Virus record (IMG/VR): IMGVR_UViG_3300037504_000149
Direction: 5' to 3' (one strand)
Length of the DNA: 64,000 nt
DNA from: a virus
Lineage: Duplodnaviria; Caudoviricetes
Both the position numbers and the translations under genes were made by a program. Every line of letters begins with the position of its first letter. Positions within the stretch are counted from its first letter, which is position 1. Under the pieces are notes generated by a model. The model ran no database searches. It was given only the letters and a program-made list of their open reading frames with translations, and was not told where the DNA came from. This document shows positions 16,021-38,715 of the stretch, in pieces.

Positions 16021-16866
16021 CTATGGAATTAAATGAATGTATTGACTAAGTGCTTCATTACGTGCCTGATTCTGGGAAACAGTATTACCCATCATATCAG
16101 TAATTCGTTCTAGCGGAACAGTTTGATACGTCATTAACCCACCAATTGTAGATCCTTCTACTCCGCCACTTACTTTAAATTTGTCATACCCTGGACCCTT
16201 TGGGTTACGTCTTACTACCCAAGTTTTCTGATCTATTAATGGTAAGCCTACAAAGTATGCTATAACTTGTGCTGCTCCGGGAGGTATTATAATACCTCTT
16301 TTTTGCATTTCGTAAGCTCGACTTGAATCCCAAAAGTGTAAACGAGGTAACTCCCCATCCGGCATATATACCATGTAAGTAGCGCCTCCTATTCTCCCCG
16401 TACCTCCACACACTTCACATAATGGATCTGCTTCGTTAGATGAATAACTCCAACAAGAACAACGAGTTGTTAATTTACGTTCAAGCATAACAATAGCAGG
16501 CTGCCCATACATATCGTTTGCCATATATACTGAGCGTGCCTGCTGTAATGCATTCTGATAAACAAATCTACTTTTAAATTTTTTCAGTGGATCATAAGTG
16601 TATTCTTTCTCGTAATTGTCTAGTAATTCTCCGTTTAATATTGGTGATACGTTGTAGGTTACTGGCTCATATATATTTTTTACAAAATCTCTAAATAAGT
16701 ATGTTTGAACTGGTCCTATAGGTATGCGTGGTTTTGACCCATATGTAGCATATACCATATACCCATCCCACTTAGAATGAGCCTCGTCTTCTATATACAG
16801 ATCTAAGGCACCATGATAAGTGTTTTCGTCCATTACTAAAGCTGGATTGTGCACGTATAAGTTCAT
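16021..16866 (-). CDS. Neck / head-closure protein with Zn finger
   Basis: RCSCW...DPLCEVCGGTG Cys4 motif in the neck-gene position. Confidence 0.55.
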   Translation of the reverse strand: MNLYVHNPALVMDENTYHGALDLYIEDEAHSKWDGYMVYATYGSKPRIPIGPVQTYLFRDFVKNIYEPVTYNVSPILNGELLDNYEKEYTYDPLKKFKSRFVYQNALQQARSVYMANDMYGQPAIVMLERKLTTRCSCWSYSSNEADPLCEVCGGTGRIGGATYMVYMPDGELPRLHFWDSSRAYEMQKRGIIIPPGAAQVIAYFVGLPLIDQKTWVVRRNPKGPGYDKFKVSGGVEGSTIGGLMTYQTVPLERITDMMGNTVSQNQARNEALSQYIHLIP

Positions 16867-18356
16867 TATATTTTTGTTTGTAGTAACGATTTAAGTACGT
16901 GTGTTTCAAATAATTGTTTCTTCCAACTTATTGTCATGGTTCTAGCATGCATAGATACATCAGGACGGGGAAAATCATTAAAGTAGTTATATAATATAAA
17001 CGCGTCGATATCTCCCGCATATTGCAGAATATCAGTAGCGGCTGACGCCGCAGAACGGAAGCGTAGATGTTTAGCTTGTCTGTCTGATATACCTAAACAA
17101 TTTGTAGGGCAAACTAATATACAAGCACTAAATCCAAGTATAATAGATTGTTCTCCAGAATCTAAAACTTCATTTATAGCTCTTTCAAGCTCTTCTAATC
17201 TATCACTAGCAAAATAGTATTTATTGTTATCATTACTATAGTTTATTCTTTTCTTTTCATGCCCTTCGGGCTGTTCAACATTTAATGTAAAGTATCGTCT
17301 AATAAACTTTTTAGCATTTTTACGTATCCTTTCTTCTTCTTTACTATCAATACCTGGTGTGTTTACCCAATTGCCTAACTCATCTGCTTCAGCTTCAAAA
17401 TATGTACGTGTAATTTGTTTTAAATCTTCTTCATTATTTACATCGGGATTTTCTTCAACAACTTCCTGTAAGTATTTTATAGCTTCTCCTACTTCAGGTC
17501 CAGATTTTATATTTCCTATTTCCATTATATCATAACCAGATATATTTAAATCATTTTTAGATGATTGCTGAGGGTCTCTGTCAACAGTTTCTATACGCTT
17601 CGCTAATTCATCTATCAAGCTGCAATCACCATCGTCTAAATGGGCCAACGAATCCGCTCTAGCTAAATCTAACAACGCTTCTACGTTTTCTTCTCCTACA
17701 CGATTTATAAATCTTCTTACAGCAGCATCTTTCCATTGACCATTATAACCTATCATATGGTTACCAATCATACACGTTACAAAATCTATAAATTCTTCGT
17801 CATAACCTAAGTTAGAGAGTATGTATTTAGCCTTTGCTGCTGAAAAATCTTCATGTGCAGGAAATGAGTATTCTCCGGTAGCTAAATTATCTGTTCTAGT
17901 TTCTGGTTTTCCTATATCATGTAGTAGTGCTGACCACCTTAAACCTACATCATCTTTAGGAGTATAATCACATGCTTTAAGTAAATGCATAAATACATCA
18001 TATTTATGGTGGCTATTTTGCTCTACACCTTTACATTCCTGTAATTCTGGTAATAAATGTTCTAGTAATCCAGTTTCAGCAAACAATTTGATTGCTTTGG
18101 ACGGCGTGTCCATACTTAAGCATTGTTCCCAAATTTCCCTTTTCTTTTCTGGTGTCCACGAGCTAGCTATAATTGCATGATCTTTTATAGCTTTAATATC
18201 ATCGTCTGCTAGCTCACAATCATTCGCTCCTGCACGAACACACGCCTCGTACATAAGATCTGGTACGTTTAGATATGTAAAATACGGCTCAACTAGTATA
18301 GAGGCTACTCGGCGTCCATCAAGCATTTCTGTGATTTGAAAATGTTCTCGGCTCAT
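16866..18356 (-). CDS. HD-domain phosphohydrolase derived from a CCA-adding enzyme, lacking the nucleotidyltransferase head
   Basis: GLLEHLLPEL..C.GVEQNSHHKYDVFMH, ALLHDIGKP, H.DFSA, HM and ARAD motifs; CCA-type tail LNISGYDIM...GPEVG; no GGAVRD or DxD. Confidence 0.8.
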   Translation of the reverse strand: MSREHFQITEMLDGRRVASILVEPYFTYLNVPDLMYEACVRAGANDCELADDDIKAIKDHAIIASSWTPEKKREIWEQCLSMDTPSKAIKLFAETGLLEHLLPELQECKGVEQNSHHKYDVFMHLLKACDYTPKDDVGLRWSALLHDIGKPETRTDNLATGEYSFPAHEDFSAAKAKYILSNLGYDEEFIDFVTCMIGNHMIGYNGQWKDAAVRRFINRVGEENVEALLDLARADSLAHLDDGDCSLIDELAKRIETVDRDPQQSSKNDLNISGYDIMEIGNIKSGPEVGEAIKYLQEVVEENPDVNNEEDLKQITRTYFEAEADELGNWVNTPGIDSKEEERIRKNAKKFIRRYFTLNVEQPEGHEKKRINYSNDNNKYYFASDRLEELERAINEVLDSGEQSIILGFSACILVCPTNCLGISDRQAKHLRFRSAASAATDILQYAGDIDAFILYNYFNDFPRPDVSMHARTMTISWKKQLFETHVLKSLLQTKI

Positions 18357-26327: not shown

Positions 26328-26656
26328 TGGAAGATAACGAAAAAACATTAACTGAAGGTACTAAATATGATGAAGGTAAATTACCTATTTACCTACTACC
26401 TAGTAAACCATTAGAGATAATTACCGAAGTTCTACAATTTGGTGCAGAAAAATACACCCCTCATAATTGGCGTAAAGGGATGAAGTGGAGTCGTTTAATC
26501 TCTGCGATAATGAGACACTTACTAGCGTGGAAGGAGGGGGAGGATGTTGATCCAGAGACCGGTATTTCCCATTTAGGGCATATCGGCTGCGATGTTTTGT
26601 TTTTATTAGAGTATGAAGCTAGGGGATTAGGCGAAGATGATAGGTATAAAGTTTAA
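26327..26656 (+). CDS. dATP/dGTP diphosphohydrolase-domain protein (DUF5664-like)
   Basis: KYDEGK...LLP...VLQFGAEKY..HNWRKG...RHLLAW..GEDVDPETGISHL.H. Confidence 0.8.
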   Translation: MEDNEKTLTEGTKYDEGKLPIYLLPSKPLEIITEVLQFGAEKYTPHNWRKGMKWSRLISAIMRHLLAWKEGEDVDPETGISHLGHIGCDVLFLLEYEARGLGEDDRYKV

Positions 26657-27036
26657 TCGTCTATCCATTCATTATGAAGTTTTCTAAGGGCATCTGTCCA
26701 AGTACCGGGTTGATATGCTGATTTTTCGGGATCCATAGTATATTCATTTCCAAAACGTTCCGCGTGTGCTAATATAACTTCCCATTGTGCATCAGTGGGA
26801 GGTTTAGTGCTTAAATATCCTGCGTGACATATTCTTATCCACCCTAAACTTTCAAGTGTAGACTCTACATCCTCCCCATAATACTGATCAATTATGTCTT
26901 CTTCTATGATTTCATGCTGCCCATAATCACTCAATTCATAGTCTCCATTGGGGGAGAGCCACCCATACATAAATCCCATATCCCAATAATACTCCGTGTC
27001 ATCGTTTATATATGCAGTATATACTAAATATATCAT
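26653..27036 (-). CDS. Small paralogue family member 1 (W-x-x-PNG / H / GW-x-R)
   Basis: GWLSPNGDY...GQH...LESLGWIRI..AGYL; similar to 35025..35402 and 36996..37373. Confidence 0.65.
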   Translation of the reverse strand: MIYLVYTAYINDDTEYYWDMGFMYGWLSPNGDYELSDYGQHEIIEEDIIDQYYGEDVESTLESLGWIRICHAGYLSTKPPTDAQWEVILAHAERFGNEYTMDPEKSAYQPGTWTDALRKLHNEWIDD

Positions 27037-27037
27037 T

Positions 27038-28525
27038 TTATTCTCCCAAACTATCTTGTATTGTATTTATTATACTGTTATTAGTTTCTATTGATAATAC
27101 GTATTTTAAAAACTCTTTATAATGATCTGAAAATTGTAAAGCTTCTTCAACGATTGTTTCTTTGGCATAATAATCGTCAGCTAAAATATACCAATATTTC
27201 ATTGCTGTGTTAGATAATTTTGGAATTAATACCGATAAACATTCAAAATCACTATATCCAGGATCTACATCTCTAAGTTTTTGCCCAATATATGTTACCA
27301 GCTCAGGGAATCTATTAACAATACTGGCTCTAATATTTACTAAGCCTTCCAATATACGATCATTATCAGTATCTCGGTATATTTCATCCCAATAACGCAT
27401 ATTAATCGCATCAAAATATTTATCTACTATATCTCTTCTTTCCTCACTATAAGGTTTGTATTTCATATCTTCATTATGCACAAGTATATCTAACATTAGT
27501 TGCCCATTGAGTTGTTCAGTTGCCCAAGAATCGTATATATTTTCTTCCTCTGTATTAACAAATGTAGTATATGTATCAAACTCCCACCCCTCACTTCCAA
27601 AGTTATCTAGTATTCTTTTAGCACATGATAATGTAGTTCCATGATAATACGTAAACCCTTCTATATCCTTATATACTGGATTTTCCCATCCTGTGGACAC
27701 TTCGTTATTTTGGGATATTATATCTACTTTCTTTATCCATCCATCAGGGATGGTATCTCCATATATAGTTTGAGCCATAGATTCTTCTAATAGTTTAACT
27801 ATTATTGGCATTACAGCTTGTTGTATTACACTTTCCCACACATTATACGGAAACTGCTTTATATTTTCTACTACTAGCCAAACTATATGATTAACTAATG
27901 ATTCCGCGTCTTCCATAGTTACTACTGAGAATTCTTCGTCTACATGTGTCCCTGGTGTAGGAGTAAATGTCGATACATCCTTATAGTCCCTATCTGGGAA
28001 AGTAGTTATTGTTGTATATAGATTACCTAAAAACTCATCGTATATAGCGTAAAGTTCTGTATTATAATTTGAATTATCCTTTGATATTATACTATCCAGT
28101 CTATCTAAAATAACTTCCTCATTATCTGTTTCACTATATTCGTGTATCAACTCATCGATAAAGTAGAAAATTGCTCTATGTATTGCACCTGCCACCATAT
28201 CAACATCTTGATCTATTTTATAAGGATTTTCTTCCTCATCATATATAGGTACATTTATGTGTATTATTGCTCCTAGATCTGTAAATTTACCACCATAGTC
28301 CATAATATGATGATGCTTACTGTTTCTGTCACTCCCCAACATTTTATATAGCGCATATCTATGTGCTACATTGTAATCTGTTGTAATATTTACCCCTCCA
28401 AATTTATCAAAAAGATCCATAGAATCAGGTGACGTATATCTAAGATTACTTTTAGGTAGCGTGGCATCTAATTCTGGAGTATAAGTGGGATAGATGGGGT
28501 CGGCTGTGCGAATAAAATAAATCAT
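27038..28525 (-). CDS. Putative circularly permuted ADP-ribosyltransferase-fold protein B
   Basis: GVNITTDYNVAHRYA, AIIHINV and QTIYGDTIPDGWI precede YYHGTTLSCAKRIL. Confidence 0.55.
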   Translation of the reverse strand: MIYFIRTADPIYPTYTPELDATLPKSNLRYTSPDSMDLFDKFGGVNITTDYNVAHRYALYKMLGSDRNSKHHHIMDYGGKFTDLGAIIHINVPIYDEEENPYKIDQDVDMVAGAIHRAIFYFIDELIHEYSETDNEEVILDRLDSIISKDNSNYNTELYAIYDEFLGNLYTTITTFPDRDYKDVSTFTPTPGTHVDEEFSVVTMEDAESLVNHIVWLVVENIKQFPYNVWESVIQQAVMPIIVKLLEESMAQTIYGDTIPDGWIKKVDIISQNNEVSTGWENPVYKDIEGFTYYHGTTLSCAKRILDNFGSEGWEFDTYTTFVNTEEENIYDSWATEQLNGQLMLDILVHNEDMKYKPYSEERRDIVDKYFDAINMRYWDEIYRDTDNDRILEGLVNIRASIVNRFPELVTYIGQKLRDVDPGYSDFECLSVLIPKLSNTAMKYWYILADDYYAKETIVEEALQFSDHYKEFLKYVLSIETNNSIINTIQDSLGE

Positions 28526-28532
28526 ATTTTCC

Positions 28533-28561
28533 TTGACAAAAATTTAGTTGTGTGCTAAAAT
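28533..28561 (+). promoter_or_regulatory. Sigma70-type promoter TTGACA-N17-(TGc)TAAAAT
   Basis: Perfect -35, 17-bp spacer and extended -10. Confidence 0.75.
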
Positions 28562-28625
28562 TAGCTTATGCGAGTAGGAATCACACATTATTTAAACGAC
28601 TTTGTATACATTATGAGGTTATAAT

Positions 28626-29543
28626 ATGTCTACTTCAAACTTCTTGTACAGTATTCCTGAGTTAACTATATTTAACTCATTTACAGGTAATTATGAAACA
28701 CTTCCTAAAAGTGATAAGTTATGGAATATAAAACCAGTATTCACCACCCCATATACATTAACATCTTTACGTACTATATATTTTTCACAATTATTATGTA
28801 ATATAATGGAAAATCTTAAATACAAATGTTGCTCACTAACTATTCCTGTTATTAATAACTGGTTAAAATCTTTATTACACTATGAGAACAACAATAATCA
28901 GTTGGACGATACATCTGATACATTATATATAGTTGGTAAAGATAAAATAGATAGCATTGATATTACTAAGTATTCTAGTGCAACCAGTAAATTAATTGTT
29001 GTGGAAAGTCTTAATCTATACCATTATGAAGGTATGCCTGTAGTAAATATTATGTTAAGTTTACAGGAAAATACATTACTTAAATTTCCTAACATCGTAA
29101 AACTACTATTAATGTCATCTACAATGGTAGCACATTATACTCAAGCATATAATGCATATATAGATGGGGTTACAAATTTCTTTGATAATTGTGTTAATTT
29201 AGATAATATTACCGATAATGATGCAGTGTATAATATTTTAGCTGATCTTCATGTAGAGGAAGTAGACCCAAACATTGTTTATACATTATCGTCTAGTTTA
29301 GATAATTTACATAGTATTACTGATATGGGTAGCTTTTTAGATCATACAATTAGGTATACATATAAGTATAAATTACATGATCTGTACGATACCTTAGTTA
29401 AACGCGCCGAAGAAATATGCCCTTATTATAAAGTTGTAGATAATACGTTAAACCCTATCGGTGTAGAAAAGTCTTCTTATCCTCCTCTAGTAGAATGGCC
29501 CATACCCTTTCCTATACCCTTTCCTAAACACTTTATGTTGTAG
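28626..29543 (+). CDS. Hypothetical protein, possibly a degenerate CysRS-like class I synthetase fold
   Basis: LTIFNSFTGNYETLP...SLRTIYFSQLLCNIMENLKYK resembles the CysRS N-terminus, but HIGH and KMSKS are absent. Confidence 0.35.
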   Translation: MSTSNFLYSIPELTIFNSFTGNYETLPKSDKLWNIKPVFTTPYTLTSLRTIYFSQLLCNIMENLKYKCCSLTIPVINNWLKSLLHYENNNNQLDDTSDTLYIVGKDKIDSIDITKYSSATSKLIVVESLNLYHYEGMPVVNIMLSLQENTLLKFPNIVKLLLMSSTMVAHYTQAYNAYIDGVTNFFDNCVNLDNITDNDAVYNILADLHVEEVDPNIVYTLSSSLDNLHSITDMGSFLDHTIRYTYKYKLHDLYDTLVKRAEEICPYYKVVDNTLNPIGVEKSSYPPLVEWPIPFPIPFPKHFML

Positions 29544-30543
29544 CTTGTGTAGCTCGTTCTAGTGTAGTTCCATGATACCTTACATTTCTTGTATTAATTA
29601 TGTGATCTATGTTATCTTCATAATCCTCATTTCGATATATTTCAATAAACTCAGTAGTATATTTTCCATAAATAGTTTCCATATCGCTCATAGTTCGGTA
29701 TGGTGCTGAAGTTAAATATTCTTCAAAATCAAAACCTTCAAAAGATACTTTATAAATATTTATAATATGCTCAGCTTCTATGTCACTAGTATAACGTTCT
29801 TGTACGTATCCTGAAGTTTGTAGTTGTTTAACATCAGTACTTATTTCAAAAGAAGTTAATAGTTCATATAACCATTTAGAAGCTGTTTCCAGTAATTCAA
29901 CTACTTGATCTTGATAGTCATTGTTGTGTAGATAATCTAAATTTATACGTTCTAGATACCCTATTAAAGATCTACTAAACTTCTCTATACGGCCTCCCTT
30001 CCTGTACCTTTCTATCCCACCTAACCATTCTTTAATATAGTTTATATTCTCAAGTATTATATCCTTCACTTCTGTTATGCGTTCCTCAGTGGAAGTATTA
30101 GATAGTATAATAGCTGCTTTATCTATATTATCTAATAGTTTCTCTAAATAATATTTTGCGTCTTCAATCTCTCCGCTAACCATATAAGGGTAATTTTCTA
30201 TATCTTGTGGTGTATATGGCTGATAATAAGCATACTCATCAACTACTTTTGTATCTATATCAATATCTAAAAAATCTTTGTATGGTCTTATATCTATAGA
30301 TATTACAACAGGTTCTGAATATCGCTCATCATTCATGTAATCAATGAATGTACGTTGCACGGCATAAAACCCTGCTGATTGCATGGCTTCTTCTATGCTA
30401 CCTTTAGGATTTATAACATGTACCCCTACAACATCTTCAGGATTGTTCTCGATATGTGTCATTATATCCCCACCACCTGGGTCATTACGTTTGGTATTCT
30501 CGGGCGGGTTACTGTATAACGGTTCTGATATAAAATATAGCAT
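29533..30543 (-). CDS. Putative circularly permuted ADP-ribosyltransferase-fold protein A
   Basis: GVHV...AGFYA, PVVISIDI and QERYTSDIEAEHI, then a C-terminal RYHGTTLERA. Confidence 0.5.
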   Translation of the reverse strand: MLYFISEPLYSNPPENTKRNDPGGGDIMTHIENNPEDVVGVHVINPKGSIEEAMQSAGFYAVQRTFIDYMNDERYSEPVVISIDIRPYKDFLDIDIDTKVVDEYAYYQPYTPQDIENYPYMVSGEIEDAKYYLEKLLDNIDKAAIILSNTSTEERITEVKDIILENINYIKEWLGGIERYRKGGRIEKFSRSLIGYLERINLDYLHNNDYQDQVVELLETASKWLYELLTSFEISTDVKQLQTSGYVQERYTSDIEAEHIINIYKVSFEGFDFEEYLTSAPYRTMSDMETIYGKYTTEFIEIYRNEDYEDNIDHIINTRNVRYHGTTLERATQATT

Positions 30544-30557
30544 TAGTTATCCTTATA

Positions 30558-30783
30558 TTATAGCAATGTCAAATCGTCTTCTGTAATTTCACCAATACCT
30601 ATCTGTTTAAGTAGCCAAAATGTATAGCTACCGCCTTCTCCTGTAGGATCGAAACTATTTACCCCCTAATAAATTCTTCAGCTTCTTCCTCAGTATTTAT
30701 TTCAGGATAAGTACTGGCTTAATCATTTTAGGTAACTGATCTTCAAAATCTGCTGTATATTCTTTAAGAGTAAAATATATCAT
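30558..30783 (-). pseudogene. Frameshifted remnant of a DPT-motif gene with an MIYF N-terminus
   Basis: Three frames read MIYFTLKEYTADFEDQLPKMI / ASTYPEINTEEEAEEFIRG / VNSFDPTGEGGSYTFWLLKQI; the last matches QYDPTGTSYNHWLIVQV in ORF 31948..34092. Confidence 0.55.
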
Positions 30784-31958
30784 TATTTATTTTCCTCTAT
30801 AATACGTTCTAGTTCTTCATGTTGATCTAGAGAAGGATTTTCTATAACTCTATCTAGAAGTTCATTAAGTATAATTCCTACCATTCTGCCTTGTGGAACA
30901 CCTAAACTTATAACATCACTACCATCTACCTCTAAATCTTTAACTTGTAAAGGTATATCTTCCTGTAGTATAAATTGTATACCTTTCTGAACATCTTCAT
31001 ATACAGATGGCTCTGTTTCTATCCTATATATTTCTAATATATCATCAGCATTGTCTCTACCTACATTACGCATTAATTGGTTAGGATCATTATCAATACC
31101 TGGATAATTGTCTAAATAGTTTAATACTTTTCTAATTACTTTATTAGGATATCGTAATTTATTTAAGGTCTCATCTGCTCTTTCTTTTACTGGACTTAAA
31201 AATATAGCTAAGCGAACTTCTATACTGTTAGGTGCTTGCTCAATCTTATTACCTATATCAGTTATATTAGCTGGGTAATTTTCTACTATATTATCTAATA
31301 AACCTGTTACACTTAAATAATTAAGCATTGTTGTAGGTTTTTCATATAGTAAACCTTTAGTAAACTCAGTATTTATACGCTCGATTGCCGGTTGTGTTAT
31401 ATTCGTTTGTTGGATAGCTGCCAGCAATTCATCATCTATTTCAAAATTAAATTTAGCTGCTTGTCTACAAGCTCTATAAGCTCGTAATCCGTCCTCTAAG
31501 AGCCTTTCTTCGGCTGAGCCTACCGCACGTATTACTCCCTCCTCTAAGTCCTCTCTACCGTTGAATGGGTCCGTTAGAGAGCCATCGACAAGGTTAACAG
31601 CCATCGCATTTATAGTGAAGTCACGACGTGCTAAATCTGGTACAATATCATCTACGAATTCTACACTGTCTGGTCTGCGTCCATCCGTATAATCACCTTC
31701 AGTGCGGAACGTAGTTATTTCTATTGGTTCGTCATTATAAATAACAGTTACTGTTCCATGTTGTAATCCAGTAGGATGTATGGTTATACCTGCACTTTCA
31801 TACACTTCCATTACAGTTTGGGGATTGGCGTTTGTTGCTAGGTCATAATCATCAGGGTTTATACCAAGCAACATATCCCTAACTGCTCCACCTACTAAGT
31901 AGCAGGAGTAGTTAGCTTGTATAAGAATCTGTGCAACTTGTTTGTAATTATTCATCAT
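30783..31958 (-). CDS. cca: Class II CCA-adding tRNA nucleotidyltransferase (no HD domain)
   Basis: YLVGGAVRD..LG..PDDYDLAT, HGTV, EITTFR.EG.Y.DGRRP (flexible loop), DLARRDFTINAMA, EDGLR (EDxxR), ERI. Confidence 0.92.
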   Translation of the reverse strand: MMNNYKQVAQILIQANYSCYLVGGAVRDMLLGINPDDYDLATNANPQTVMEVYESAGITIHPTGLQHGTVTVIYNDEPIEITTFRTEGDYTDGRRPDSVEFVDDIVPDLARRDFTINAMAVNLVDGSLTDPFNGREDLEEGVIRAVGSAEERLLEDGLRAYRACRQAAKFNFEIDDELLAAIQQTNITQPAIERINTEFTKGLLYEKPTTMLNYLSVTGLLDNIVENYPANITDIGNKIEQAPNSIEVRLAIFLSPVKERADETLNKLRYPNKVIRKVLNYLDNYPGIDNDPNQLMRNVGRDNADDILEIYRIETEPSVYEDVQKGIQFILQEDIPLQVKDLEVDGSDVISLGVPQGRMVGIILNELLDRVIENPSLDQHEELERIIEENK

Positions 31959-34092
31959 AAATATAATAAATTCTTGTAAGTTTACTACTTGTATATATAC
32001 CTGGTAATGGTATGTTTTGTTTTCTATATTGCTCTTTTAGATATTCAACTACAGTAAGATGCCCTCTACGAGCAGCCATACGTAATGCTTCACCATAACA
32101 AGCATGTATATCAGCACCATGTTCAACTAAATATTCAACTACAGGAAGATGCCCCCTTCTAGCAGCCCAACGTAATGCATAATCATTACTAGCATGTATA
32201 TTAGCATCATGCTCAACTAAATATTCAACTACAGGAAGATGTCCCTTCGCAGCAGCCGCACCTAACGCATAATCATTCTGAGCATGTATATTAGCATCAT
32301 GTTCAACTAAATATTCAACTACAGGAAGATGCCCATACTCAGCAGCCCAACGTAATGCTTCATCATCGTTAGCATGTATATTTGCATCATGCTCAACTAA
32401 ATATTCAACTACAGGAAGATGCTCTCTCAAAACAGCCCAACGTAATGCATGATCATCATCAGCATGTATATCAGCATCATGCTCAACTAAATATTCAACT
32501 ACAGGAAGATGCCCATTCTCAGCAGCATAACGTAATGCATAATCATTCCTAGCATGTATATCAGCATCATGCTCTACTAAATATTCAACTACAGGAAAAC
32601 GCCCATTCTCAGCAGCCCAACGTAATGCTTCATCATCCTTAGCATGTATATTTGCACCATGTTCAACTAAATATTCAACTACAGGAAGATGCCCATTCTC
32701 AGCAGCATAACGTAATGCACTATCATTGCCAGCATGTATATCAGCATCATGCTCAATTAAATATTCAACTACAGGAAGATGCCCTTTACGAGCAGCCATA
32801 CGTAATGCAGAATCATAATAAGCATATACATTAGCACCTTGCTCCACTAAATATTCAACTACAGGAAGATGCCCTTCTGAAGCAGCCAACCGTAATGCTG
32901 CATTATCATCAGCATGTATATCAGCCCCATTATCTAACGCTTCTTTAACACCTTGTAGATCATTATTTTTAACAGCATTAATTAAATCCTTGTTAGATTT
33001 TATAGAAGGAATTGCTTTTAATAATGCATCTATTGCTCCTTTTAGTTCTTCATTATCAAAATCTATAGTATTACCTTCACTATTATAAAGTGTATCTACT
33101 GCTTTAACATAAGCTAATACAGGATTTCCTTGCTCAAAAACTATATACATACCTTCGCCAATATATTTCTCAGCATAATCTCTCTGCTTACCTGTACACC
33201 ACTTAGTTCCTTGACTATCCCTAAATAATGCTTCGACATCTAGATAATATCTAACTTCATAAGTATTATCTTGATATTTAACTTCATAACCTTCTTCTTT
33301 ACCTACTTCTTTAGTACCACCTATTTTAATATCAAAAACATTACTTAGTAGTATCTTAATATCATCTACATATAAATCTTGCGTATCTAAATTACTTAGA
33401 TTATCAAAATCTATACTTTTATCTATATTAACTGTTTCATTATTTTGATTTAGTAACTTACTCTCATAAGGATCCCAAAGGAATTTAACATTAGTAGAAG
33501 GAAATACAAATCCATAGTAAGAACCTTTATCTATCCATTCTTCTGCTATTCTAGGATTATTAGTATCTAGACTAGTTCCTCTACTAAACTCCATTAAGGC
33601 TTCTTTATTACTAAGCTCTAATATCTTGCATTCATTTAGATTAGTTTCTATATTATAAGCTAACTCACGAGTACCTTGATCAACTAAGTTTAACCATTGT
33701 TGTTTATTAGAAGTATAATCAATATTCTTCATTGTTTCTATTAAATCCTGCCAAGTATATTGTTGTATATCCTTAGAAGGTAATACACCTGGAATATCTT
33801 TAATAGTGTTAAAGTAATCTAGATATTTAGTTAGGGTATCTCCTTGTTCATCTAGATCTAAACCATACTTTAATACTTGAACTATTAACCAATGATTATA
33901 AGATGTTCCGGTAGGATCATATTGCTTAACTTGATCAATCAAGTTATAAGCATATTGCTCATCATAATCCTCACCCATGATATTTTGAATATCAGTAAGG
34001 AGCCGCTTATTAACAGCTAGAATGTTAAGCCAAGCAAGATAAGATGATGTTGTATTTTGAGTAATACAATACTTTATACCTGTTGTTCTCAT
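31948..34092 (-). CDS. Multidomain ankyrin-repeat protein (DPT-motif region, two GTKWCT/PcfJ-like modules, 10 ANK repeats)
   Basis: 30-aa repeats ALRxAAxxGHLPVVEYLVEHxAxIHAxxDx; N-terminal YDPTGTSYNHWL and SQGTKWCT. Confidence 0.85.
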   Translation of the reverse strand: MRTTGIKYCITQNTTSSYLAWLNILAVNKRLLTDIQNIMGEDYDEQYAYNLIDQVKQYDPTGTSYNHWLIVQVLKYGLDLDEQGDTLTKYLDYFNTIKDIPGVLPSKDIQQYTWQDLIETMKNIDYTSNKQQWLNLVDQGTRELAYNIETNLNECKILELSNKEALMEFSRGTSLDTNNPRIAEEWIDKGSYYGFVFPSTNVKFLWDPYESKLLNQNNETVNIDKSIDFDNLSNLDTQDLYVDDIKILLSNVFDIKIGGTKEVGKEEGYEVKYQDNTYEVRYYLDVEALFRDSQGTKWCTGKQRDYAEKYIGEGMYIVFEQGNPVLAYVKAVDTLYNSEGNTIDFDNEELKGAIDALLKAIPSIKSNKDLINAVKNNDLQGVKEALDNGADIHADDNAALRLAASEGHLPVVEYLVEQGANVYAYYDSALRMAARKGHLPVVEYLIEHDADIHAGNDSALRYAAENGHLPVVEYLVEHGANIHAKDDEALRWAAENGRFPVVEYLVEHDADIHARNDYALRYAAENGHLPVVEYLVEHDADIHADDDHALRWAVLREHLPVVEYLVEHDANIHANDDEALRWAAEYGHLPVVEYLVEHDANIHAQNDYALGAAAAKGHLPVVEYLVEHDANIHASNDYALRWAARRGHLPVVEYLVEHGADIHACYGEALRMAARRGHLTVVEYLKEQYRKQNIPLPGIYTSSKLTRIYYIYDE
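32033..32932 (-). repeat. Tandem 90-bp coding repeat, 10 copies (ankyrin array 1)
   Basis: Anchor atattcaactacag at 32041, 32131, 32221 ... 32851 with an exact 90-bp period. Confidence 0.95.
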
Positions 34093-34121
34093 TATTTAGA
34101 TCCTTCGGGTTCAGTGTACTA

Positions 34122-35006
34122 TTAGATGGTCCAGATATTATGGCCGAAGGGTACCATAGCCATTAAGATGAAGTTCTCTACATATCTTACACGTCTACCA
34201 AGTCCCATGTGTGAGCCTCCATCCTTGTACCTAGCAAGAGGACTCATCTCAAGATCTGATTGATATAATTGTTCGAACGTATCTGCTAAACGCATATAAT
34301 CTCGTTCTACACGTACACTAACTGGTGGTAGGTCGGCAGTATGTCTATTGGCTTCCTCCAAACTCTGCCTCACTCTAAATGCTTGTGCTAGAGATGAGTT
34401 AAGTAATAAATGCTCCAATTGTTCGGGAAAATCTTCTAAAGTCCACCCTCGTTCACCTAATGTGTGAGAATAGGCTGTATTCAAGCGAGCAAGAGATGTT
34501 TTAAGACACATGGCTAATTGAGAAGTAGACCAACGACCTGCTTCTTCCCAAAAGTTTACTCGCCATAGTTTAGGATTATGCTCAAATAACAGTAATCGTA
34601 ATGTTTGAAGAAAGTATTCTGGCCTAGAAACAGTACCTAGTTCAACTGTATCCTTTATTATTTGTAAATCTCCATGTTTAAATCCTCTAACTTCTATTTC
34701 ATAAACACCAGGTTCTAAATCTGCTGTTTGCAATTCTATTTTGTATGTACCATAACCACCTTCACTAGACTTAGGCTTAATGGTTACGTTACGTGGATTT
34801 ACTTCTTTACCATCTTTTGTAAACTTTACACTTATATCACGTGCTGTAGTTGCGTTACCTTGTTTACTTTCAAAGCCAGCAACATAAAAAGCAGCGTATT
34901 GCTCTATACCTGCAATATATGAAACTTGTGGACTAGATAAAGTTCTATACTCAGATGGTGCTAGTACGGTTCCGTTTAAATTGTCTAAATCAACTTGAGT
35001 TGTCAT
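34122..35006 (-). CDS. Head-tail adaptor/connector with N-terminal Ig-like domain
   Basis: GTYKIEL.TADLEPGVYEIEV beta-sandwich, then helical RWSTSQLAMCLKTSLARLN...WTLEDFP; lies between capsid and neck genes. Confidence 0.5.
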   Translation of the reverse strand: MTTQVDLDNLNGTVLAPSEYRTLSSPQVSYIAGIEQYAAFYVAGFESKQGNATTARDISVKFTKDGKEVNPRNVTIKPKSSEGGYGTYKIELQTADLEPGVYEIEVRGFKHGDLQIIKDTVELGTVSRPEYFLQTLRLLLFEHNPKLWRVNFWEEAGRWSTSQLAMCLKTSLARLNTAYSHTLGERGWTLEDFPEQLEHLLLNSSLAQAFRVRQSLEEANRHTADLPPVSVRVERDYMRLADTFEQLYQSDLEMSPLARYKDGGSHMGLGRRVRYVENFILMAMVPFGHNIWTI

Positions 35007-35024
35007 TTATTATCACCTAAATAA

Positions 35025-35402
35025 TTAAAGTATGTCTTGAAGAGTACTATTAAGTATACCACTATCTAAAACACCTACACCACCGTCAGGTGTTTTGTAG
35101 GTTGTATTTTTATATAAATCATAATGCTCATTAATAATATATAATTGTTCTTGTGTAGCTTTTTTACCAGGCTGCATCAAATACCCAAAACAACTAACTT
35201 TAACCCATCCTTGATTTTCTAAATATTCTTCTGGATTATTAATAGAGTTTACTTTAGCTAATCCTTGATCTATTAGATCATAAACAATATGAAAAGTTGC
35301 ATCTATATGTCCAGCATATTCAACTGGATGATAATTACCATTAGGTTCCAGCCACATGAATAATGGTATTTTATGTTCATTAACACATATAAAATACATC
35401 AT
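35025..35402 (-). CDS. Small paralogue family member 2
   Basis: MWLEPNGNY...YAGH...LENQGWVKVS.FGYL. Confidence 0.65.
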   Translation of the reverse strand: MMYFICVNEHKIPLFMWLEPNGNYHPVEYAGHIDATFHIVYDLIDQGLAKVNSINNPEEYLENQGWVKVSCFGYLMQPGKKATQEQLYIINEHYDLYKNTTYKTPDGGVGVLDSGILNSTLQDIL

Positions 35403-35411
35403 AATATTCCT

Positions 35412-36971
35412 TTAATAAGCTGCTATTATATTCCAAATATAATACGTCTTTGTAAATTTACTACCTGTATGTATACCTTCGGGTAATGGTATGTTTTGTT
35501 TTTTATATTGTTCTTTTAGATATTCAACTACAGGAGTATGCTCATTTAAAACAGCTAGACGTAATGCCCAACCTTCCCAAACGTTTATATCAGCACCTTG
35601 CTCAACTAAGTATTTAACTATAGGAAGATTTCCTTTCTGAGAAGCTGCACGAAATGCAAAATCATAATCGGCATGTATATTCGCACCTTGCTCTACTAAA
35701 TATTTAACTACAGGAAGGTGTCCTCTCCAAGTAGCCTTACGTAACGCATAATCATCATCAGCACGTATATCAGCACCTTGCTCAACTAAGTATTTAACTA
35801 TAGGAAGGCGTCCATACCAAACAGCCCAACGTAATGCATAATCATCATCAGCATGTATCATCTTTTCTGCTGCTTCTTTACCCTCATTTTGTTTAATATA
35901 TTCTACTAAATATTTAACTACAGGAAGATATCCTTCCATAGCAGCATAACGTAATGCCTCATCATCCGCAGCATGTATATCAGCGCCCTGCTTAACTAAG
36001 TATTCAACTACAGGAAGATATCCTTCCATAGCAGCCCAACGTAATGCTTGATCATTGTTAGCGTGTATATCAGCACCCTGCTCTACTAAACATTCAACTA
36101 CAGGAAGTTGTCCATGATAAGCAGCAATACGTACTGCATAATCATCGTCAATGTGTATATCAGCACCATCATCTAGAGCTTTTTTAATTCCTTGCAGATC
36201 ATTACGTGCAATAGAACTTATTAACAATTGTGTTGCTTCTTTAATTTTTATAATCCTATCTTTATCCATTTCAGGATTTTTCATTAAATCAAATATTTCT
36301 CTAAGTTCTTCTTCGTCACTACTAAAATACTCAGCAACTGTTCCACCATGATGAGCAACATCTTTAATATGATCTATTAACATCATTCTTTTATCTACAT
36401 CTATTTCTTGTTCTATCTCTTGTAACTGATCTTCGATACCTTCGTGTACTCCATCTCCGGTCATTCTAGGAGTATTTTCTTCTCTAATAAGGTTAACTAG
36501 TTTATTAGCAAAGATATCTAATATCTTAGTAAATAGTTCAGGAGCTAGATTATTTAGATATAAATTTTTGTAATAATGATATAAATTTAACCATTCAAAA
36601 CCATTTAAAAATTCTATATTACCAAAAGCATCTTGCTCTAAAAATTCTATTGCTTCAGTTACAACAGGAGCTTCATAAACATCATCGACATAATTAGTAG
36701 TAGTATCATTAGGATGCTTATCTAATCTCATTATAATGTTTTGTAAATCATCATCTAGTAAATCTATATCTCCGTAAACTTTTGTAACATGATCTCTAAA
36801 TTCAGATAATGTGGTTATGGATTCCCCATTAGGAGAAATAACAGTCATACCATTATTTAGTTTAGTAGTATAACCCATGTTACTCATGATTTCTGCTATC
36901 TCATAAGTTTCATCTACATAAGAATAATAGTATTTCATACTAGTTTTAAACTTCATAATTATATTGTCCAA
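35412..36971 (-). CDS. Ankyrin-repeat protein 2 (7 ANK repeats) with an unrelated acidic N-terminal region
   Basis: Same ANK consensus, N-cap NDLQG.K.ALD.GADIH and C-cap EYLKEQY.KQNIPLP as ORF 31948..34092. Confidence 0.85.
   Translation of the reverse strand: MDNIIMKFKTSMKYYYSYVDETYEIAEIMSNMGYTTKLNNGMTVISPNGESITTLSEFRDHVTKVYGDIDLLDDDLQNIIMRLDKHPNDTTTNYVDDVYEAPVVTEAIEFLEQDAFGNIEFLNGFEWLNLYHYYKNLYLNNLAPELFTKILDIFANKLVNLIREENTPRMTGDGVHEGIEDQLQEIEQEIDVDKRMMLIDHIKDVAHHGGTVAEYFSSDEEELREIFDLMKNPEMDKDRIIKIKEATQLLISSIARNDLQGIKKALDDGADIHIDDDYAVRIAAYHGQLPVVECLVEQGADIHANNDQALRWAAMEGYLPVVEYLVKQGADIHAADDEALRYAAMEGYLPVVKYLVEYIKQNEGKEAAEKMIHADDDYALRWAVWYGRLPIVKYLVEQGADIRADDDYALRKATWRGHLPVVKYLVEQGANIHADYDFAFRAASQKGNLPIVKYLVEQGADINVWEGWALRLAVLNEHTPVVEYLKEQYKKQNIPLPEGIHTGSKFTKTYYIWNIIAAY
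35512..36171 (-). repeat. Tandem 90-bp coding repeat, 7 copies with one 30-bp insertion (ankyrin array 2)
   Basis: Anchor tatt(c/t)aacta at 35521, 35611, 35701, 35791, 35911 and 36001, with a one-mismatch variant at 36091. Confidence 0.9.
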
Positions 36972-36995: not shown

Positions 36996-37373
36996 CTACA
37001 GTATTTTATTTAATGTGTAATCTAATCTATCCTTACTAAAGCGTATATTCATGGGACCATAATAATCAATAGACATGACTTTGTTGCAATACTTATCATA
37101 ATGAGCCATTATTACTTCAAATTGGTCATCGTTAATATGTAATCCATTAAGCATAAGATATCCAGCGTCAGTAACTCTTACATACCCTAATTGTTCTAGT
37201 AATAATTCAGGATCTTTATTGATAATAGATGTGTCCCCTGAATCAACCATCTTACTTACTATTGCCGCAGCTTTCTCACCATGTTCAGCATAATTCACAG
37301 GGTAGTAATCACCGTTTGGTGCGACCCACATAAAAGGTGGAATATAGTCATTAGTACAAATAAAATATATCAT
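36996..37373 (-). CDS. Small paralogue family member 3
   Basis: MWVAPNGDY...YAEH...LEQLGYVRVTDAGYL. Confidence 0.65.
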   Translation of the reverse strand: MIYFICTNDYIPPFMWVAPNGDYYPVNYAEHGEKAAAIVSKMVDSGDTSIINKDPELLLEQLGYVRVTDAGYLMLNGLHINDDQFEVIMAHYDKYCNKVMSIDYYGPMNIRFSKDRLDYTLNKIL

Positions 37374-37584: not shown

Positions 37585-38715
37585 CTACTCATCTAAAGAT
37601 AATAAATACTCTCTAGATATAGCTTTAAAGGACACATTGTACTGTTTTTTCTTAGTAACAGCCCTAGATCGTACAACTATTCCTTCCTGTAAAACAGTAG
37701 GAACTAATGTACTTTTACTATCAGCTAAGTTTAAAAAGTAAGCTGTATCCATATTCTTAGCCAATACTAACTTAGTATTGATAATAGGTACAGTTTGTAA
37801 TCCCACCTTATCACAAAGATTTACAATATCAGGAAATACTACATATTCCATACTATTAATTTTAAAAATATTAAATACAAAAAACTTAAGTTTGTTAAAC
37901 TTATAGTTATTCTTTTGTACTCGTGGCCCAACTATCTCCCCTTGGACTGCCACAGACTCACCTAGTAATGTACTCAATTGCTCCAACCGCTTGCGTAGTT
38001 CATATGAACGAGCAATATTCCAATAATTGGTATCATCTTCTATAGGTCGAGCTTTGTTACGAGAAGCTACGATAAACTTAGGACGAGAAAACCATCCTTT
38101 GGGCTTATAAAATGCAAAAGTACCACTTTGTCCATCGAGCTTTTCTGTGACGTAGCATTCTGTTCCAGCAGCTAGTTCACCTATATATGGTAAATTCTGG
38201 ATGCGTTCTTCATCTGTTTTAGGTATCTCAGGTGGGAACGTTCCTGTAGCATCTCCTACAAGCCTACTTCGTATAGCTCGGAAAACCTTAAACCGCATAA
38301 AGAAGTTAAAGATACCAGAACGTTTATTACTTTTAGGACTTTTAGAGGCTTGCTGACGTACATGAGGCTCATACTTTACTACTCCAATAATATCAGTAAC
38401 ATCTTGACCTATACTAAGATCAACTTTATGAGTTGTAAAATGTTCCAGTATATCCACCGGCATAGCTAAACCTTGAGATATCTGGCCTCTAAGTTTAATT
38501 GTCTTTACACGAAATTTACTCCTACGCATAAATTCAAACACAGGGTGGTCGGGAAGCACAGAATCAGTTTCAAAGAAAATACACTTATCCCCTACTTTAA
38601 ACTCGTTCTTCTTAGCAACAAGTTCCCATCCTTTAACTGTAATACATACAATTCTGTCAGCTCCCTTAATAAGAGAAATAGAATCTACACGCTGAATTGT
38701 AGCCAACTTACGCAT
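37585..38715 (-). CDS. ATP-dependent RNA ligase, DRB0094 (Rnl5) family
   Basis: N-terminal RKLATI...GADRI...FETDS.LP...IKLRGQISQGL; PKTDEERIQN; motif I TEKLDGQS; QGEIVG; FVFNI; EGIVVR; SFKAIS. Confidence 0.92.
   Translation of the reverse strand: MRKLATIQRVDSISLIKGADRIVCITVKGWELVAKKNEFKVGDKCIFFETDSVLPDHPVFEFMRRSKFRVKTIKLRGQISQGLAMPVDILEHFTTHKVDLSIGQDVTDIIGVVKYEPHVRQQASKSPKSNKRSGIFNFFMRFKVFRAIRSRLVGDATGTFPPEIPKTDEERIQNLPYIGELAAGTECYVTEKLDGQSGTFAFYKPKGWFSRPKFIVASRNKARPIEDDTNYWNIARSYELRKRLEQLSTLLGESVAVQGEIVGPRVQKNNYKFNKLKFFVFNIFKINSMEYVVFPDIVNLCDKVGLQTVPIINTKLVLAKNMDTAYFLNLADSKSTLVPTVLQEGIVVRSRAVTKKKQYNVSFKAISREYLLSLDE

What the first reader, a model, noticed from the sequence alone, without database searches (positions are those of the whole stretch)
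31948..34092. Natural DARPin-like array: near-invariant 90-bp ankyrin scaffold with hypervariable binding-face codons
Seen: ten exact-period 90-bp repeats. Framework DNA is almost identical even at synonymous sites (aactaaatattcaactacaggaagatg), while a few codons vary radically. Position 4 is L/M/Y/W/A, positions 7-8 are SE, RK, EN, EN, EN, LR, EY, AK, RR, RR, and the turn reads YY, GN, KD, RN, DD, ND, QN, SN, CY followed two residues later by S/E/Y/H. Known: helix-1 and beta-turn residues form the ankyrin binding surface and are the positions randomised in designed ankyrin libraries, and compact 30-aa ANK repeats are typical of giant eukaryotic viruses. Inference: repeat homogenisation plus diversifying selection yields a recombinable binder repertoire, for example against host defence proteins.
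Basis: partly seen in the sequence, partly recalled or inferred. Interest (0 to 1): 0.75.

Follow-up and report, generated by a model that had tools for sequence, protein, structure and literature searches.

The report
Fast-evolving ankyrin binder in giant phage
A giant uncultured bacteriophage encodes a protein whose tail is a stack of ten shortened (30-residue) ankyrin repeats with an almost frozen scaffold and six fast-changing surface positions per repeat, most likely a rapidly evolving protein-binding module; the pattern is real, but it is shared by the whole family of such repeats and the target is unknown.

Summary
Observation confirmed. ORF 31948-34092 (-) encodes 714 aa: an unannotated 367-aa head domain, an N-cap, nine full 30-residue ankyrin units, a C-cap and a short tail. 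It matches Pfam Ank_2 at 2.6e-73, and the model matches ankyrin and DARPin structures.

Framework codons are 91% identical between units, against 46% expected from codon usage (dS 0.12, dN 0.06). Unit positions 1, 5, 8, 9, 28 and 29 are saturated (dN about 1.0). They align on or next to positions randomised in designed ankyrin libraries, on one face of helix 1 and in the turn, which is 3 residues shorter than canonical.

The array is not unique. The same 30-residue subclass, variable at positions 1, 5, 8, 9 and 28, occurs in many metagenomic proteins, including a giant-virus contig. This scan has also noted shortened ankyrin arrays in another phage.

In the only close relative found, the sister ankyrin gene keeps its head domain (about 95% nt identity). 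Its array is rebuilt: 5 versus 7 units and 67-86% identity.

The head domain family is also fused to other repeat types and sits in a polyvalent protein.

Best reading: a fast-evolving binder or adaptor made by repeat turnover plus selection on the binding face. An anti-defence role and a "repertoire" are untested. Interest is moderate.

The parts
31948..34092 (-). Whole gene, 714 aa (P0001): head domain + ankyrin cassette + tail
   Evidence: ORF and translation. Shine-Dalgarno-like GAAGGA at 34101-34106, 8 nt before the ATG. The stop overlaps the start of the downstream CCA-adding enzyme gene.
32992..34092 (-). Head domain, aa 1-367: helical N-terminal part plus two alpha/beta subdomains. The second carries the family motif GTKWCT...YAEKY...G.MYIVF (aa 295-319); the first carries a degenerate copy (about aa 172-197).
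   Evidence: No Pfam or PHROG hit. 38 weak homologues found. Family consensus GT.WCT..A..YL..GPLY. Model built from the alignment has pLDDT 88.8. No clear solved fold. Predicted-structure matches are to proteins of tailed phages and a few Marseillevirus records.
32902..32991 (-). N-capping unit, aa 368-397 (KDLINAVKNNDLQGVKEALDNGADIHADDN)
   Evidence: Aligns to the DARPin N-cap. Shared with the paralogue P0002 and with P0017.
32092..32901 (-). Nine full 30-residue (90-bp) ankyrin units, aa 398-667. Unit = x-A-L-R-x-A-A-x-x-G-H-L-P-V-V-E-Y-L-V-E-H-[GD]-A-[DN]-I-H-A-x-x-D, with hypervariable positions 1, 5, 8, 9, 28, 29.
   Evidence: Pfam Ank_2 2.6e-73. Helix-turn-helix units in the model. Foldseek matches to ankyrin-1 and DARPins.
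32014..32091 (-). C-capping unit, aa 668-693 (EALRMAARRGHLTVVEYLKEQYRKQN)
   Evidence: long last helix 679-691. Framework DNA is 89-92% identical to the C-caps of P0002 and P0017.
31948..32013 (-). Conserved C-terminal tail, aa 694-714 (IPLPGIYTSSKLTRIYYIYDE) plus stop. Predicted as a beta-hairpin at low confidence.
   Evidence: Shared with P0002 and P0017. Strands 697-701 and 706-710 with pLDDT below 50.
35412..36971 (-). Paralogue P0002 (519 aa by the TTG start; more likely starts at MKFK, nt 36956). An unrelated 245-aa head domain carries the same ankyrin cassette (7 units, one interrupted by a C-cap-like remnant) and the same tail.
   Evidence: The two head domains are unrelated. Its orthologue P0017 in L003 has 5 units.

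Best explanation
The gene encodes a cytoplasmic two-part phage protein. A conserved head domain of unknown activity belongs to a family found in tailed-phage proteins (with a few giant-virus structure matches) and marked by GTxWCT...YL..GPLY. It is joined to a capped solenoid of ten shortened ankyrin repeats.

Each repeat keeps the packing residues: L3, A6, A7, G10-H11, and L-P-V-V-E-Y-L-V of helix 2. Each exposes six differing residues, rich in Tyr, Trp, Arg, Glu, Asn and Asp, on the free face of helix 1 and in the turn, which is 3 residues shorter than canonical. Together these make a continuous surface of about 55-60 variable residues that most likely binds a specific protein partner. The array would then either bring the head domain to that partner or sequester it.

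The array arose or was homogenised recently by tandem duplication, unequal crossing-over or gene conversion. Selection has driven or kept the surface codons apart.

Shown: ankyrin identity, the geometry of variation in sequence terms, the codon statistics, and rapid array turnover in the sister gene. Inferred: binding, the nature of the partner, late expression, and any counter-defence role.
For: Ankyrin identity:
- Pfam Ank_2 2.6e-73, Ank 3.2e-52.
- phmmer matches ankyrin-1 at 7e-70 and a DARPin at 6.7e-68.
- The model shows paired helices per unit, with Foldseek probability 1.00 to ankyrin and DARPin chains.

Codon statistics:
- Framework dS 0.12 and dN 0.06; variable codons dN about 1.0.
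- 72% of pairwise non-synonymous differences fall in 20% of codons.
- Same-codon use is 91% against 46% expected.

Position mapping:
- The HMMER alignment to a DARPin puts unit positions 8, 9, 28 and 5 at DARPin positions 13, 14, 33 and 10. Positions 1 and 29 flank the 3-residue deletion in the hairpin.
- Positions 1, 5, 8 and 9 span about a 100-degree arc of helix 1, opposite the invariant L3/A6/A7 (plus helix periodicity).

Rapid change in time:
- Between the window and L003 the head domains have dS 0.12-0.24 and omega about 0.25.
- The P0002/P0017 array drops to 67-86% nt identity, with whole-unit indels starting exactly at the N-cap.
- Within-array framework identity is 92.7%, against 84% between the two paralogous arrays.

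Modularity:
- The same cassette sits on two unrelated head domains.
- The head-domain family is fused elsewhere to 26-residue, MORN-like and 36-residue repeats, and occurs inside a 2521-aa ART-PolyVal polyvalent protein.
Against: - No partner, no binding data and no expression data exist.
- The orthologue of this gene's own array is not assembled: L003 ends at residue 352. Change over time is therefore shown only for the sister gene.
- 'Different between repeats' could mean that each repeat contacts a different part of one fixed, long ligand, which is conservation rather than diversification.
- Mapping to the concave face is by alignment and periodicity only. No coordinates were available, and the gap placement in the hairpin is ambiguous.
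- The same variable positions occur in every 30-residue array examined, so the pattern by itself does not mark a special function.
- The single-sequence model of the array has only moderate confidence, with pLDDT of about 59-68 in the 10-residue blocks that hold the turn.
Confidence: 0.7

Rival explanations
1. Fixed-ligand scaffold. The array binds one long, unchanging partner, such as a phage structural, assembly or RNA-repair protein, with each repeat contributing different contacts as in cellular ankyrins. The six positions differ between repeats but are conserved over time. Framework identity comes from gene conversion that selection stops at the contact codons.
For: Only within-gene comparison is available for this array. 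The gene lies on the late strand between head and tail modules, among RNA ligase, CCA-adding and ART/Tpt1-like genes. Its cassette, caps and tail are conserved.
Against: The sister array P0002/P0017 changed unit number (7 versus 5) and most surface residues between phages whose head domains are about 95% identical in DNA. This argues that such arrays do change quickly here. The nearby 125-aa gene stays under purifying selection (omega 0.09) while the array next to it is rebuilt.
Confidence: 0.15
2. Neutral relaxation after a recent repeat expansion. The six positions are simply unconstrained surface sites with no selected binding function, and the array is a spacer or stabilising rod for the head domain.
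For: These are the highest-entropy positions in ankyrin repeats generally (PMC4308713). No function has been shown.
Against: Unconstrained sites should diverge at about the synonymous rate (0.12), not about 8 times faster (dN about 1.0). Most pairs of variable codons differ at two or three bases. The residues are biased to Tyr, Trp, Arg, Glu and Asn, as in binding surfaces. Only frequent homogenisation of the framework could rescue this reading.
Confidence: 0.08
3. Effector aimed at a eukaryote. As with sponge 'Ankyphage' ANKp or the Wolbachia phage WO ankyrin proteins, the protein acts on a eukaryotic host of the infected bacterium.
For: Ankyrin repeats are mainly eukaryotic. The nearest sequence relatives of the repeat include a giant-virus contig and proteins with SAP, F-box or RING partners. 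In GenBank phages only Wolbachia WO phages and one giant virus match. Jahn et al. report 418 ANK-bearing phage contigs (10.1101/608950).
Against: No N-terminal signal peptide is evident: residues 13-42 model as a long amphipathic helix, whereas two of the three Ankyphage ANK proteins have signal peptides. The head domain family matches mostly tailed-phage proteins, and one member is a polyvalent protein. The host and habitat are unknown.
Confidence: 0.07

Closest known systems
Designed ankyrin repeat proteins (DARPins) and the ANK-N5C library
   Same: - Capped stack of near-identical ankyrin units.
- Variation is confined to helix-1 and turn positions: unit positions 8, 9, 28 and 5 correspond to library positions 13, 14, 33 and 10.
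- The N-cap aligns to the DARPin N-cap (PMC4308713).
   Different: - Natural, not designed.
- 30-residue rather than 33-residue unit: three residues of the beta-hairpin are missing, and TPLH is replaced by xALR.
- Ten units rather than 2-5.
- Fused to a 367-aa head domain and a conserved tail.
- Binding has not been shown.
Ankyrin-repeat gene expansions of giant eukaryotic viruses (e.g. Bodo saltans virus, mimiviruses; PMC5871332, PMC5753266)
   Same: - Same 30-residue repeat subclass.
- Same DNA-level 90-bp homogeneity: L001, an NCLDV-like contig, has 17.6 copies at 84%.
- Repeat and gene turnover in a viral genome.
   Different: - Here the genome is a tailed phage: portal, HK97-type major head protein family, Shine-Dalgarno sites.
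- Only two such genes in the window, not dozens.
- The partner domains are phage-type rather than F-box, SAP or RING.
Phage ankyrin proteins: sponge 'Ankyphage' ANKp (Jahn et al., 10.1101/608950) and Wolbachia phage WO ankyrin genes
   Same: Ankyrin repeats encoded by a tailed phage.
   Different: - ANKp is small (568-nt gene), and two of the three Ankyphage ANK proteins carry signal peptides, so they are thought to be secreted.
- WO matches are only about 31% identical.
- Neither is reported with this head domain or with a frozen framework and variable face.
Polyvalent proteins of phages and conjugative elements, and PcfJ-like (PF14284) proteins (Iyer et al. 2017, PMC5512222)
   Same: - The head-domain family occurs in a 2521-aa protein with ART-PolyVal and cREC_REC domains.
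- Predicted-structure matches include phage 'PcfJ-like' proteins.
- PcfJ-plus-30-residue-ankyrin fusions exist: P0007, P0040.
   Different: - P0001 has no Pfam PcfJ hit, and profile comparison gives 2% probability.
- It has one head domain rather than many enzymatic domains.
- The polyvalent-protein paper does not mention ankyrin repeats.

Membership tests
Ankyrin repeat (Pfam clan: Ank, Ank_2, Ank_3, Ank_4, Ank_5) | Significant match to the family profiles above the curated cut-off | tested here: met
   Ank_2 243 bits (cut-off 27.3), Ank 172 bits, Ank_4 211 bits.
Ankyrin repeat (Pfam clan: Ank, Ank_2, Ank_3, Ank_4, Ank_5) | Stacked helix-turn-helix units forming a solenoid like solved ankyrin domains | tested here: met
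   Two helices per 30-residue unit in the model. Foldseek probability 1.00 to ankyrin-1, AnkB and DARPins.
Ankyrin repeat (Pfam clan: Ank, Ank_2, Ank_3, Ank_4, Ank_5) | Canonical 33-residue unit with TPLH motif and full beta-hairpin | tested here: not met
   Exact 30-residue period. There is a 3-residue gap in the hairpin in every aligned unit, and xALR replaces TPLH. This is a length variant shared by many database proteins, so family membership stands.
DARPin-like binder (works like, not a member) | Variable residues at the positions that form the target-binding surface | tested here: met
   By alignment, unit positions 8, 9, 28 and 5 correspond to positions 13, 14, 33 and 10 (PMC4308713). 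Not checked on coordinates.
DARPin-like binder (works like, not a member) | Specific binding of a target through that surface | not testable with these tools
   Needs pull-down or structural work.
Diversity-generating retroelement target | A template repeat copy of the variable region nearby, with adenine-specific differences | tested here: not met
   The framework word occurs only inside the two ankyrin genes of the 64-kb window. Variable codons differ at all base types. A reverse transcriptase was not searched for, and the rest of the 230-kb genome was not available.
Ankyphage ANKp-type secreted phage ankyrin | N-terminal signal peptide on a small ankyrin-only protein | tested here: inconclusive
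   The protein is 714 aa with a 367-aa head domain. No signal-peptide-like N-terminus by inspection and a long helix at 13-42. No signal-peptide predictor was run.
PcfJ-like (PF14284) | Match of the head domain to the family profile | tested here: inconclusive
   No Pfam hit even at E up to 10. hhalign against three PcfJ regions gives probability 2%. Foldseek on BFVD lists PcfJ-like phage proteins at E 2.6e-4 and 1.2e-3, with low TM-scores.
Polyvalent protein (Iyer et al. 2017) | Several disparate enzymatic domains in one polypeptide of a phage or conjugative element | tested here: not met
   P0001 has one head domain plus repeats. Only a homologue of the head domain lies in such a protein (P0132).

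The most novel reading that the evidence does not exclude
The gene is one instance of a general, undescribed phage design. A conserved GTxWCT-type head domain (possibly a distant PcfJ relative) is fitted with interchangeable, fast-evolving repeat arrays: 30-residue ankyrin, 26-residue helical, MORN-like, leucine-rich. These arrays aim it at changing host targets. That would make these natural 'binder-effector' chimeras of the phage-host arms race, perhaps packed in the virion and injected. The ankyrin cassette itself moves between unrelated head domains within one genome.
Probability: 0.25. Interest if true: 0.75.

Novelty: new variant of a known kind. Interest (0 to 1): 0.45.

Why it matters
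Ankyrin repeats are rare in characterised tailed phages. In 50,697 GenBank phage-collection records only Wolbachia WO phages and one giant virus matched this array.

Here a jumbo phage carries two such proteins. Their arrays show recent duplication or homogenisation together with strong divergence at the binding face. In the one available comparison, the array was rebuilt between near-identical phages. That makes them good candidates for host-interaction proteins whose targets could be found by pull-down.

The shared, unannotated head domain is fused to several repeat types. This points to a modular way for phages to build target-specific proteins.

The shortened, very regular 30-residue unit is also a natural alternative scaffold to the 33-residue units used in binder engineering.

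The pattern itself is family-wide and already seen elsewhere in this scan. The value therefore lies in the phage context and the head domain, not in the 'natural DARPin' analogy alone.

Tried and rejected
- **Assembly artefact.** The longest exact internal repeat is 57 bp and no k-mer of 77 or more is repeated. Judged unlikely, but reads were not available.
- **Codon bias as the cause of framework identity.** Rejected: 91% same-codon use against 46% expected, with rare codons shared.
- **Diversity-generating retroelement.** There is no template copy in the window and no adenine-specific pattern. A reverse transcriptase was not searched for.
- **A 270-bp higher-order period.** TRF lists one, but the unit-by-unit identity matrix shows no clean three-unit superperiod.
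- **More orthologues.**
  - The region-restricted search of 5.8 billion proteins found only the query.
  - JGI metagenome scans with both head domains found nothing.
  - An IMG/VR scan with the second head domain found nothing.
  - GenBank phages gave no DNA match and no match to the head domain.
- **Solved fold for the head domain.** Foldseek against PDB gave nothing at E up to 0.001. VIA-align gave a best Z of 6.8, to halves of GNAT folds and to polo-box domains, which is within background.
- **PcfJ relationship by profile comparison.** Probability 2%.
- **Binding of the conserved upstream 125-aa protein to the paralogue P0002.** Complex prediction returned no verdict, with score 0.00 in both runs. 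This is neither support nor evidence against.
- **Surface mapping on coordinates.** Model files are not exposed to the script box, so solvent exposure and concavity could not be computed.
- **Whole-genome search.** No genome is held for this window.
Full report
**What is there**

The window is part of a 229,864-bp contig of a tailed phage. PHROG matches identify a portal protein, a major head protein, a family-A DNA polymerase and an endolysin-like domain on a 1530-aa protein. The head protein is only 28% identical to that of Bacillus phage G. There is no DNA match in 50,697 GenBank phage records, and no whole genome is held for this window.

The finding's coordinates are exactly one minus-strand ORF of 714 aa. 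It has a Shine-Dalgarno-like GAAGGA 8 nt before the ATG, and its stop overlaps the start of a CCA-adding enzyme gene.

Tandem Repeats Finder gives a 90-bp period, 9.8 copies, 83% matches. In protein terms:
- aa 1-367 have no Pfam or PHROG family.
- aa 368-397 are an N-cap.
- aa 398-667 are nine complete 30-residue units.
- aa 668-693 are a C-cap.
- aa 694-714 are a conserved tail.

**It is an ankyrin array of a shortened type**

Pfam Ank_2 scores 2.6e-73 and Ank 3.2e-52. phmmer against PDB sequences gives ankyrin-1 at 7e-70 and a twelve-repeat DARPin at 6.7e-68. A single-sequence AlphaFold model shows two helices per unit, with pLDDT of about 60-90 along the array. It matches ankyrin and DARPin chains with Foldseek probability 1.00.

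The HMMER alignments place a 3-residue gap in the beta-hairpin of every unit, and TPLH is replaced by xALR. The unit is therefore 30 residues, not 33.

This is not peculiar to this gene. Most of the best hits among 5.8 billion proteins also have an exact 30-residue period and nearly the same consensus.

**The codon statistics**

Across the nine full units:
- Positions 1, 5, 8, 9 and 28 have entropies of 2.1-3.2 bits and position 29 has 1.5 bits. Most framework positions have 0-0.5 bits, and the G/D and N/D loop positions 22 and 24 reach about 0.9-1.0.
- Framework codons give dS 0.12 and dN 0.06. The six variable codons give dN about 1.0.
- 72% of all pairwise non-synonymous differences lie in 20% of the codons.
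- Where two units have the same framework residue they use the same codon in 91% of pairs, against 46% expected from the window's codon usage. This includes rare codons such as GGG, CTT and GAG.

The identity therefore reflects recent common descent or homogenisation, not codon bias.

For scale, orthologous genes of the window and its one close relative (L003) differ by dS 0.12-0.62. The units of this array coalesce on about the timescale that separates those two phages. Unconstrained sites would be expected to diverge at about dS, so an eight-fold excess calls for selection to be, or to remain, different at these positions.

The unit identity matrix shows no clean higher-order period.

**Where the variable positions sit**

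In the alignment to the DARPin, unit positions 8 and 9 fall on DARPin positions 13 and 14. Position 28 falls on 33 and position 5 on 10. Positions 29 and 1 flank the deleted hairpin residues.

Positions 13, 14 and 33, with 2, 3 and 5, are the DARPin library positions (my own knowledge). The ANK-N5C library randomised positions 2, 3, 5, 10, 13 and 33. Its crystal structure shows that these form one continuous binding surface on the beta-turn and helix 1 (PMC4308713).

In the model, helix 1 runs from unit position 30/1 to 8. At 100 degrees per residue, positions 1, 5, 8 and 9 span about a 100-degree arc, opposite the invariant L3, A6 and A7. In ankyrin domains the free face of the inner helix lines the groove.

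**The pattern is family-wide**

In 75 units from 12 other proteins with 30-residue periods, the highest entropies fall at the same five positions 1, 5, 8, 9 and 28. The residue preferences are also similar: Y/E/S at 1, W/L/Y at 5, E/Q/R at 8, N/Y/K at 9. The only framework position of comparable entropy is 13.

Several of those proteins show the same contrast between framework and surface identity, for example 0.86 versus 0.17.

One relative, L001, lies on an IMG/VR contig with a D5/AEP primase, an OTU protease, a patatin-like phospholipase, a synaptobrevin domain and a SAP domain. That marks it as a giant virus of eukaryotes. It carries 17.6 copies of a 90-bp unit at 84% identity.

Another relative, L002, has a run of small tandem ankyrin genes.

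This scan has also reported a tailed phage with 17 small shortened-ankyrin genes (e1-5667532). I did not test that report.

**Change over time**

A 6.3-kb contig from SRR25621648 (L003) is collinear with the window: RNA ligase, a 126-aa gene, an ankyrin gene (P0017), then the orthologue of this gene.

The orthologue of P0001 is 89% identical over 352 residues (dS 0.24, omega 0.23). The contig ends just before the array, so this gene's own array cannot be compared.

The sister gene can be compared. P0002 and P0017 are 92-98% identical in DNA over the head domain. From the N-cap onward identity falls to 67-86% with whole-unit insertions or deletions, giving 7 versus 5 units. It then returns to 90% in the C-cap and tail.

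Units of the two arrays cannot be paired one to one. So in this phage lineage ankyrin arrays are hot spots of change while their flanks are under purifying selection.

Within-array framework identity is 92.7% for this gene, against 84% between the two paralogous arrays. This fits array-specific expansion or homogenisation.

**The rest of the protein**

The head domains of P0001 and P0002 are unrelated. The same cassette (N-cap, units, C-cap, tail) therefore sits on two different domains.

An exhaustive HMMER search with aa 1-367 found 38 weak homologues, with E from 3e-15 to 8e-4, falling into two sub-regions. Their alignment shows conserved D-P-T, W, KDIN.Y and GT.WCT..A..YL..GPLY.

With that alignment the domain folds at pLDDT 88.8 into a helical part plus two alpha/beta subdomains. 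No solved structure matches convincingly.

Predicted-structure libraries return mostly proteins of tailed phages, plus a few Marseillevirus records. They include a Pseudomonas phage PA5oct protein annotated as structural, leucine-rich-repeat and ankyrin proteins, and several 'PcfJ-like' proteins. A profile comparison with PcfJ regions is not significant.

By sequence, members of the family carry other repeat arrays:
- 26-residue helical repeats (P0149, P0150, P0158).
- A MORN-like 23/46-residue repeat (P0131).
- A 36/72-residue repeat (P0122).

One copy of the domain lies inside a 2521-aa protein with ART-PolyVal and cREC_REC domains. That is a polyvalent protein in the sense of Iyer et al. 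(PMC5512222), who predict such proteins to be packaged and injected.

Packaging of P0001 itself is only a possibility. It is suggested by this link and by the gene's place on the late strand between head and tail modules.

**Interpretation**

The best-supported reading is a cytoplasmic binder or adaptor. The ankyrin solenoid offers a long surface of Tyr/Trp/Arg/Glu/Asn-rich residues to a protein partner, and the head domain supplies an unknown activity or anchoring function. The array is remodelled by unequal recombination and by selection on the binding face.

The main rival is that the surface is different between repeats but fixed in time, contacting one long ligand. Only orthologous arrays of this gene can settle that.

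Three other readings are weaker:
- Neutral relaxation is disfavoured by the eight-fold excess of dN over framework dS.
- A eukaryote-directed role is possible but lacks a signal peptide and any ecological evidence.
- An assembly artefact is unlikely, because no k-mer of 77 or more is repeated.

Nothing here bears on whether the partner is a host defence protein.

**Comparison with the known, and novelty**

Phage-encoded ankyrin proteins are known. They include the sponge Ankyphages (with 418 ANK-bearing IMG/VR contigs, 10.1101/608950) and Wolbachia phage WO. Ankyrin expansions are well known in giant viruses (PMC5753266, PMC5871332). In repeat proteins generally the framework is conserved and the binding face varies.

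What is new in degree:
- The tailed jumbo-phage context without a secretion signal.
- The very regular 30-residue unit with measured codon contrast.
- The demonstration of array turnover between close relatives.
- The fusion to an unannotated phage head-domain family that also takes other repeat types.

A comparative review of 224 jumbo phages does not mention ankyrin repeats (PMC7824862). In GenBank phage-collection records only the WO phages and one giant virus match this array.

I rate it a new variant of a known kind, of moderate interest.

Noticed in passing
window 35412-36971 (-): The paralogous ankyrin protein P0002 has a C-cap-like remnant (VEYIKQNEGKEAAEKMIHADDD, about aa 356-377) inside its array, as if two capped arrays had been joined. 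Its orthologue P0017 lacks this segment.
   Followed up: partly
window 26653-27036, 35025-35402, 36996-37373 (all -): Three paralogous proteins of about 125 aa, 25-40% identical, with MIYFIC-type N-termini and invariant W..PNG.Y...Y..H. They have no Pfam family and only a weak PHROG 31560 hit. One precedes each ankyrin gene region. The copy upstream of P0002 is conserved in L003 under purifying selection (omega 0.09).
   Followed up: partly
window 34104-35369: About 1.27 kb, holding the second 125-aa gene and a 294-aa gene of no known family, is present between the two ankyrin genes here but absent from the related phage contig L003. There the two ankyrin genes are adjacent.
   Followed up: partly
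L003 5250-6306: The related contig ends at residue 352 of the P0001 orthologue, just before the ankyrin array would begin. This is typical of a short-read assembly breaking at a repeat.
   Followed up: no
window 27038-31958 and 37585-38715, also 16866-18356: The ankyrin genes are embedded among RNA-end-processing genes: an RNA ligase with the PHA02142 OB domain, a CCA-adding/poly(A) polymerase-family enzyme, and a second tRNA nucleotidyltransferase-like gene. Two genes that another note of this scan reads as ART/Tpt1-like are also here. This looks like a tRNA-repair kit.
   Followed up: no
L002 3000-9300: An IMG/VR contig of 210 kb carries a run of at least ten short overlapping genes (112-262 aa) built only of 30-residue ankyrin units. 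This resembles the tandem small-ankyrin arrays noted elsewhere in this scan.
   Followed up: partly
L001 5815-8379: A giant-virus-like contig encodes an 854-aa protein: SAP domain, 17-18 units of the same 30-residue ankyrin type (90 bp, 84% identity), then a further C-terminal region not matched by Pfam. A D5/AEP primase gene is next to it.
   Followed up: partly
proteins P0149, P0150, P0158 (homologues of the head domain): The GTxWCT head domain is followed by very regular 26-residue repeats (YA..IIKGRWPEAEPYIMKDP) with no Pfam match. These are probably the same repeat that earlier notes of this scan describe in jumbo-phage gene arrays.
   Followed up: partly
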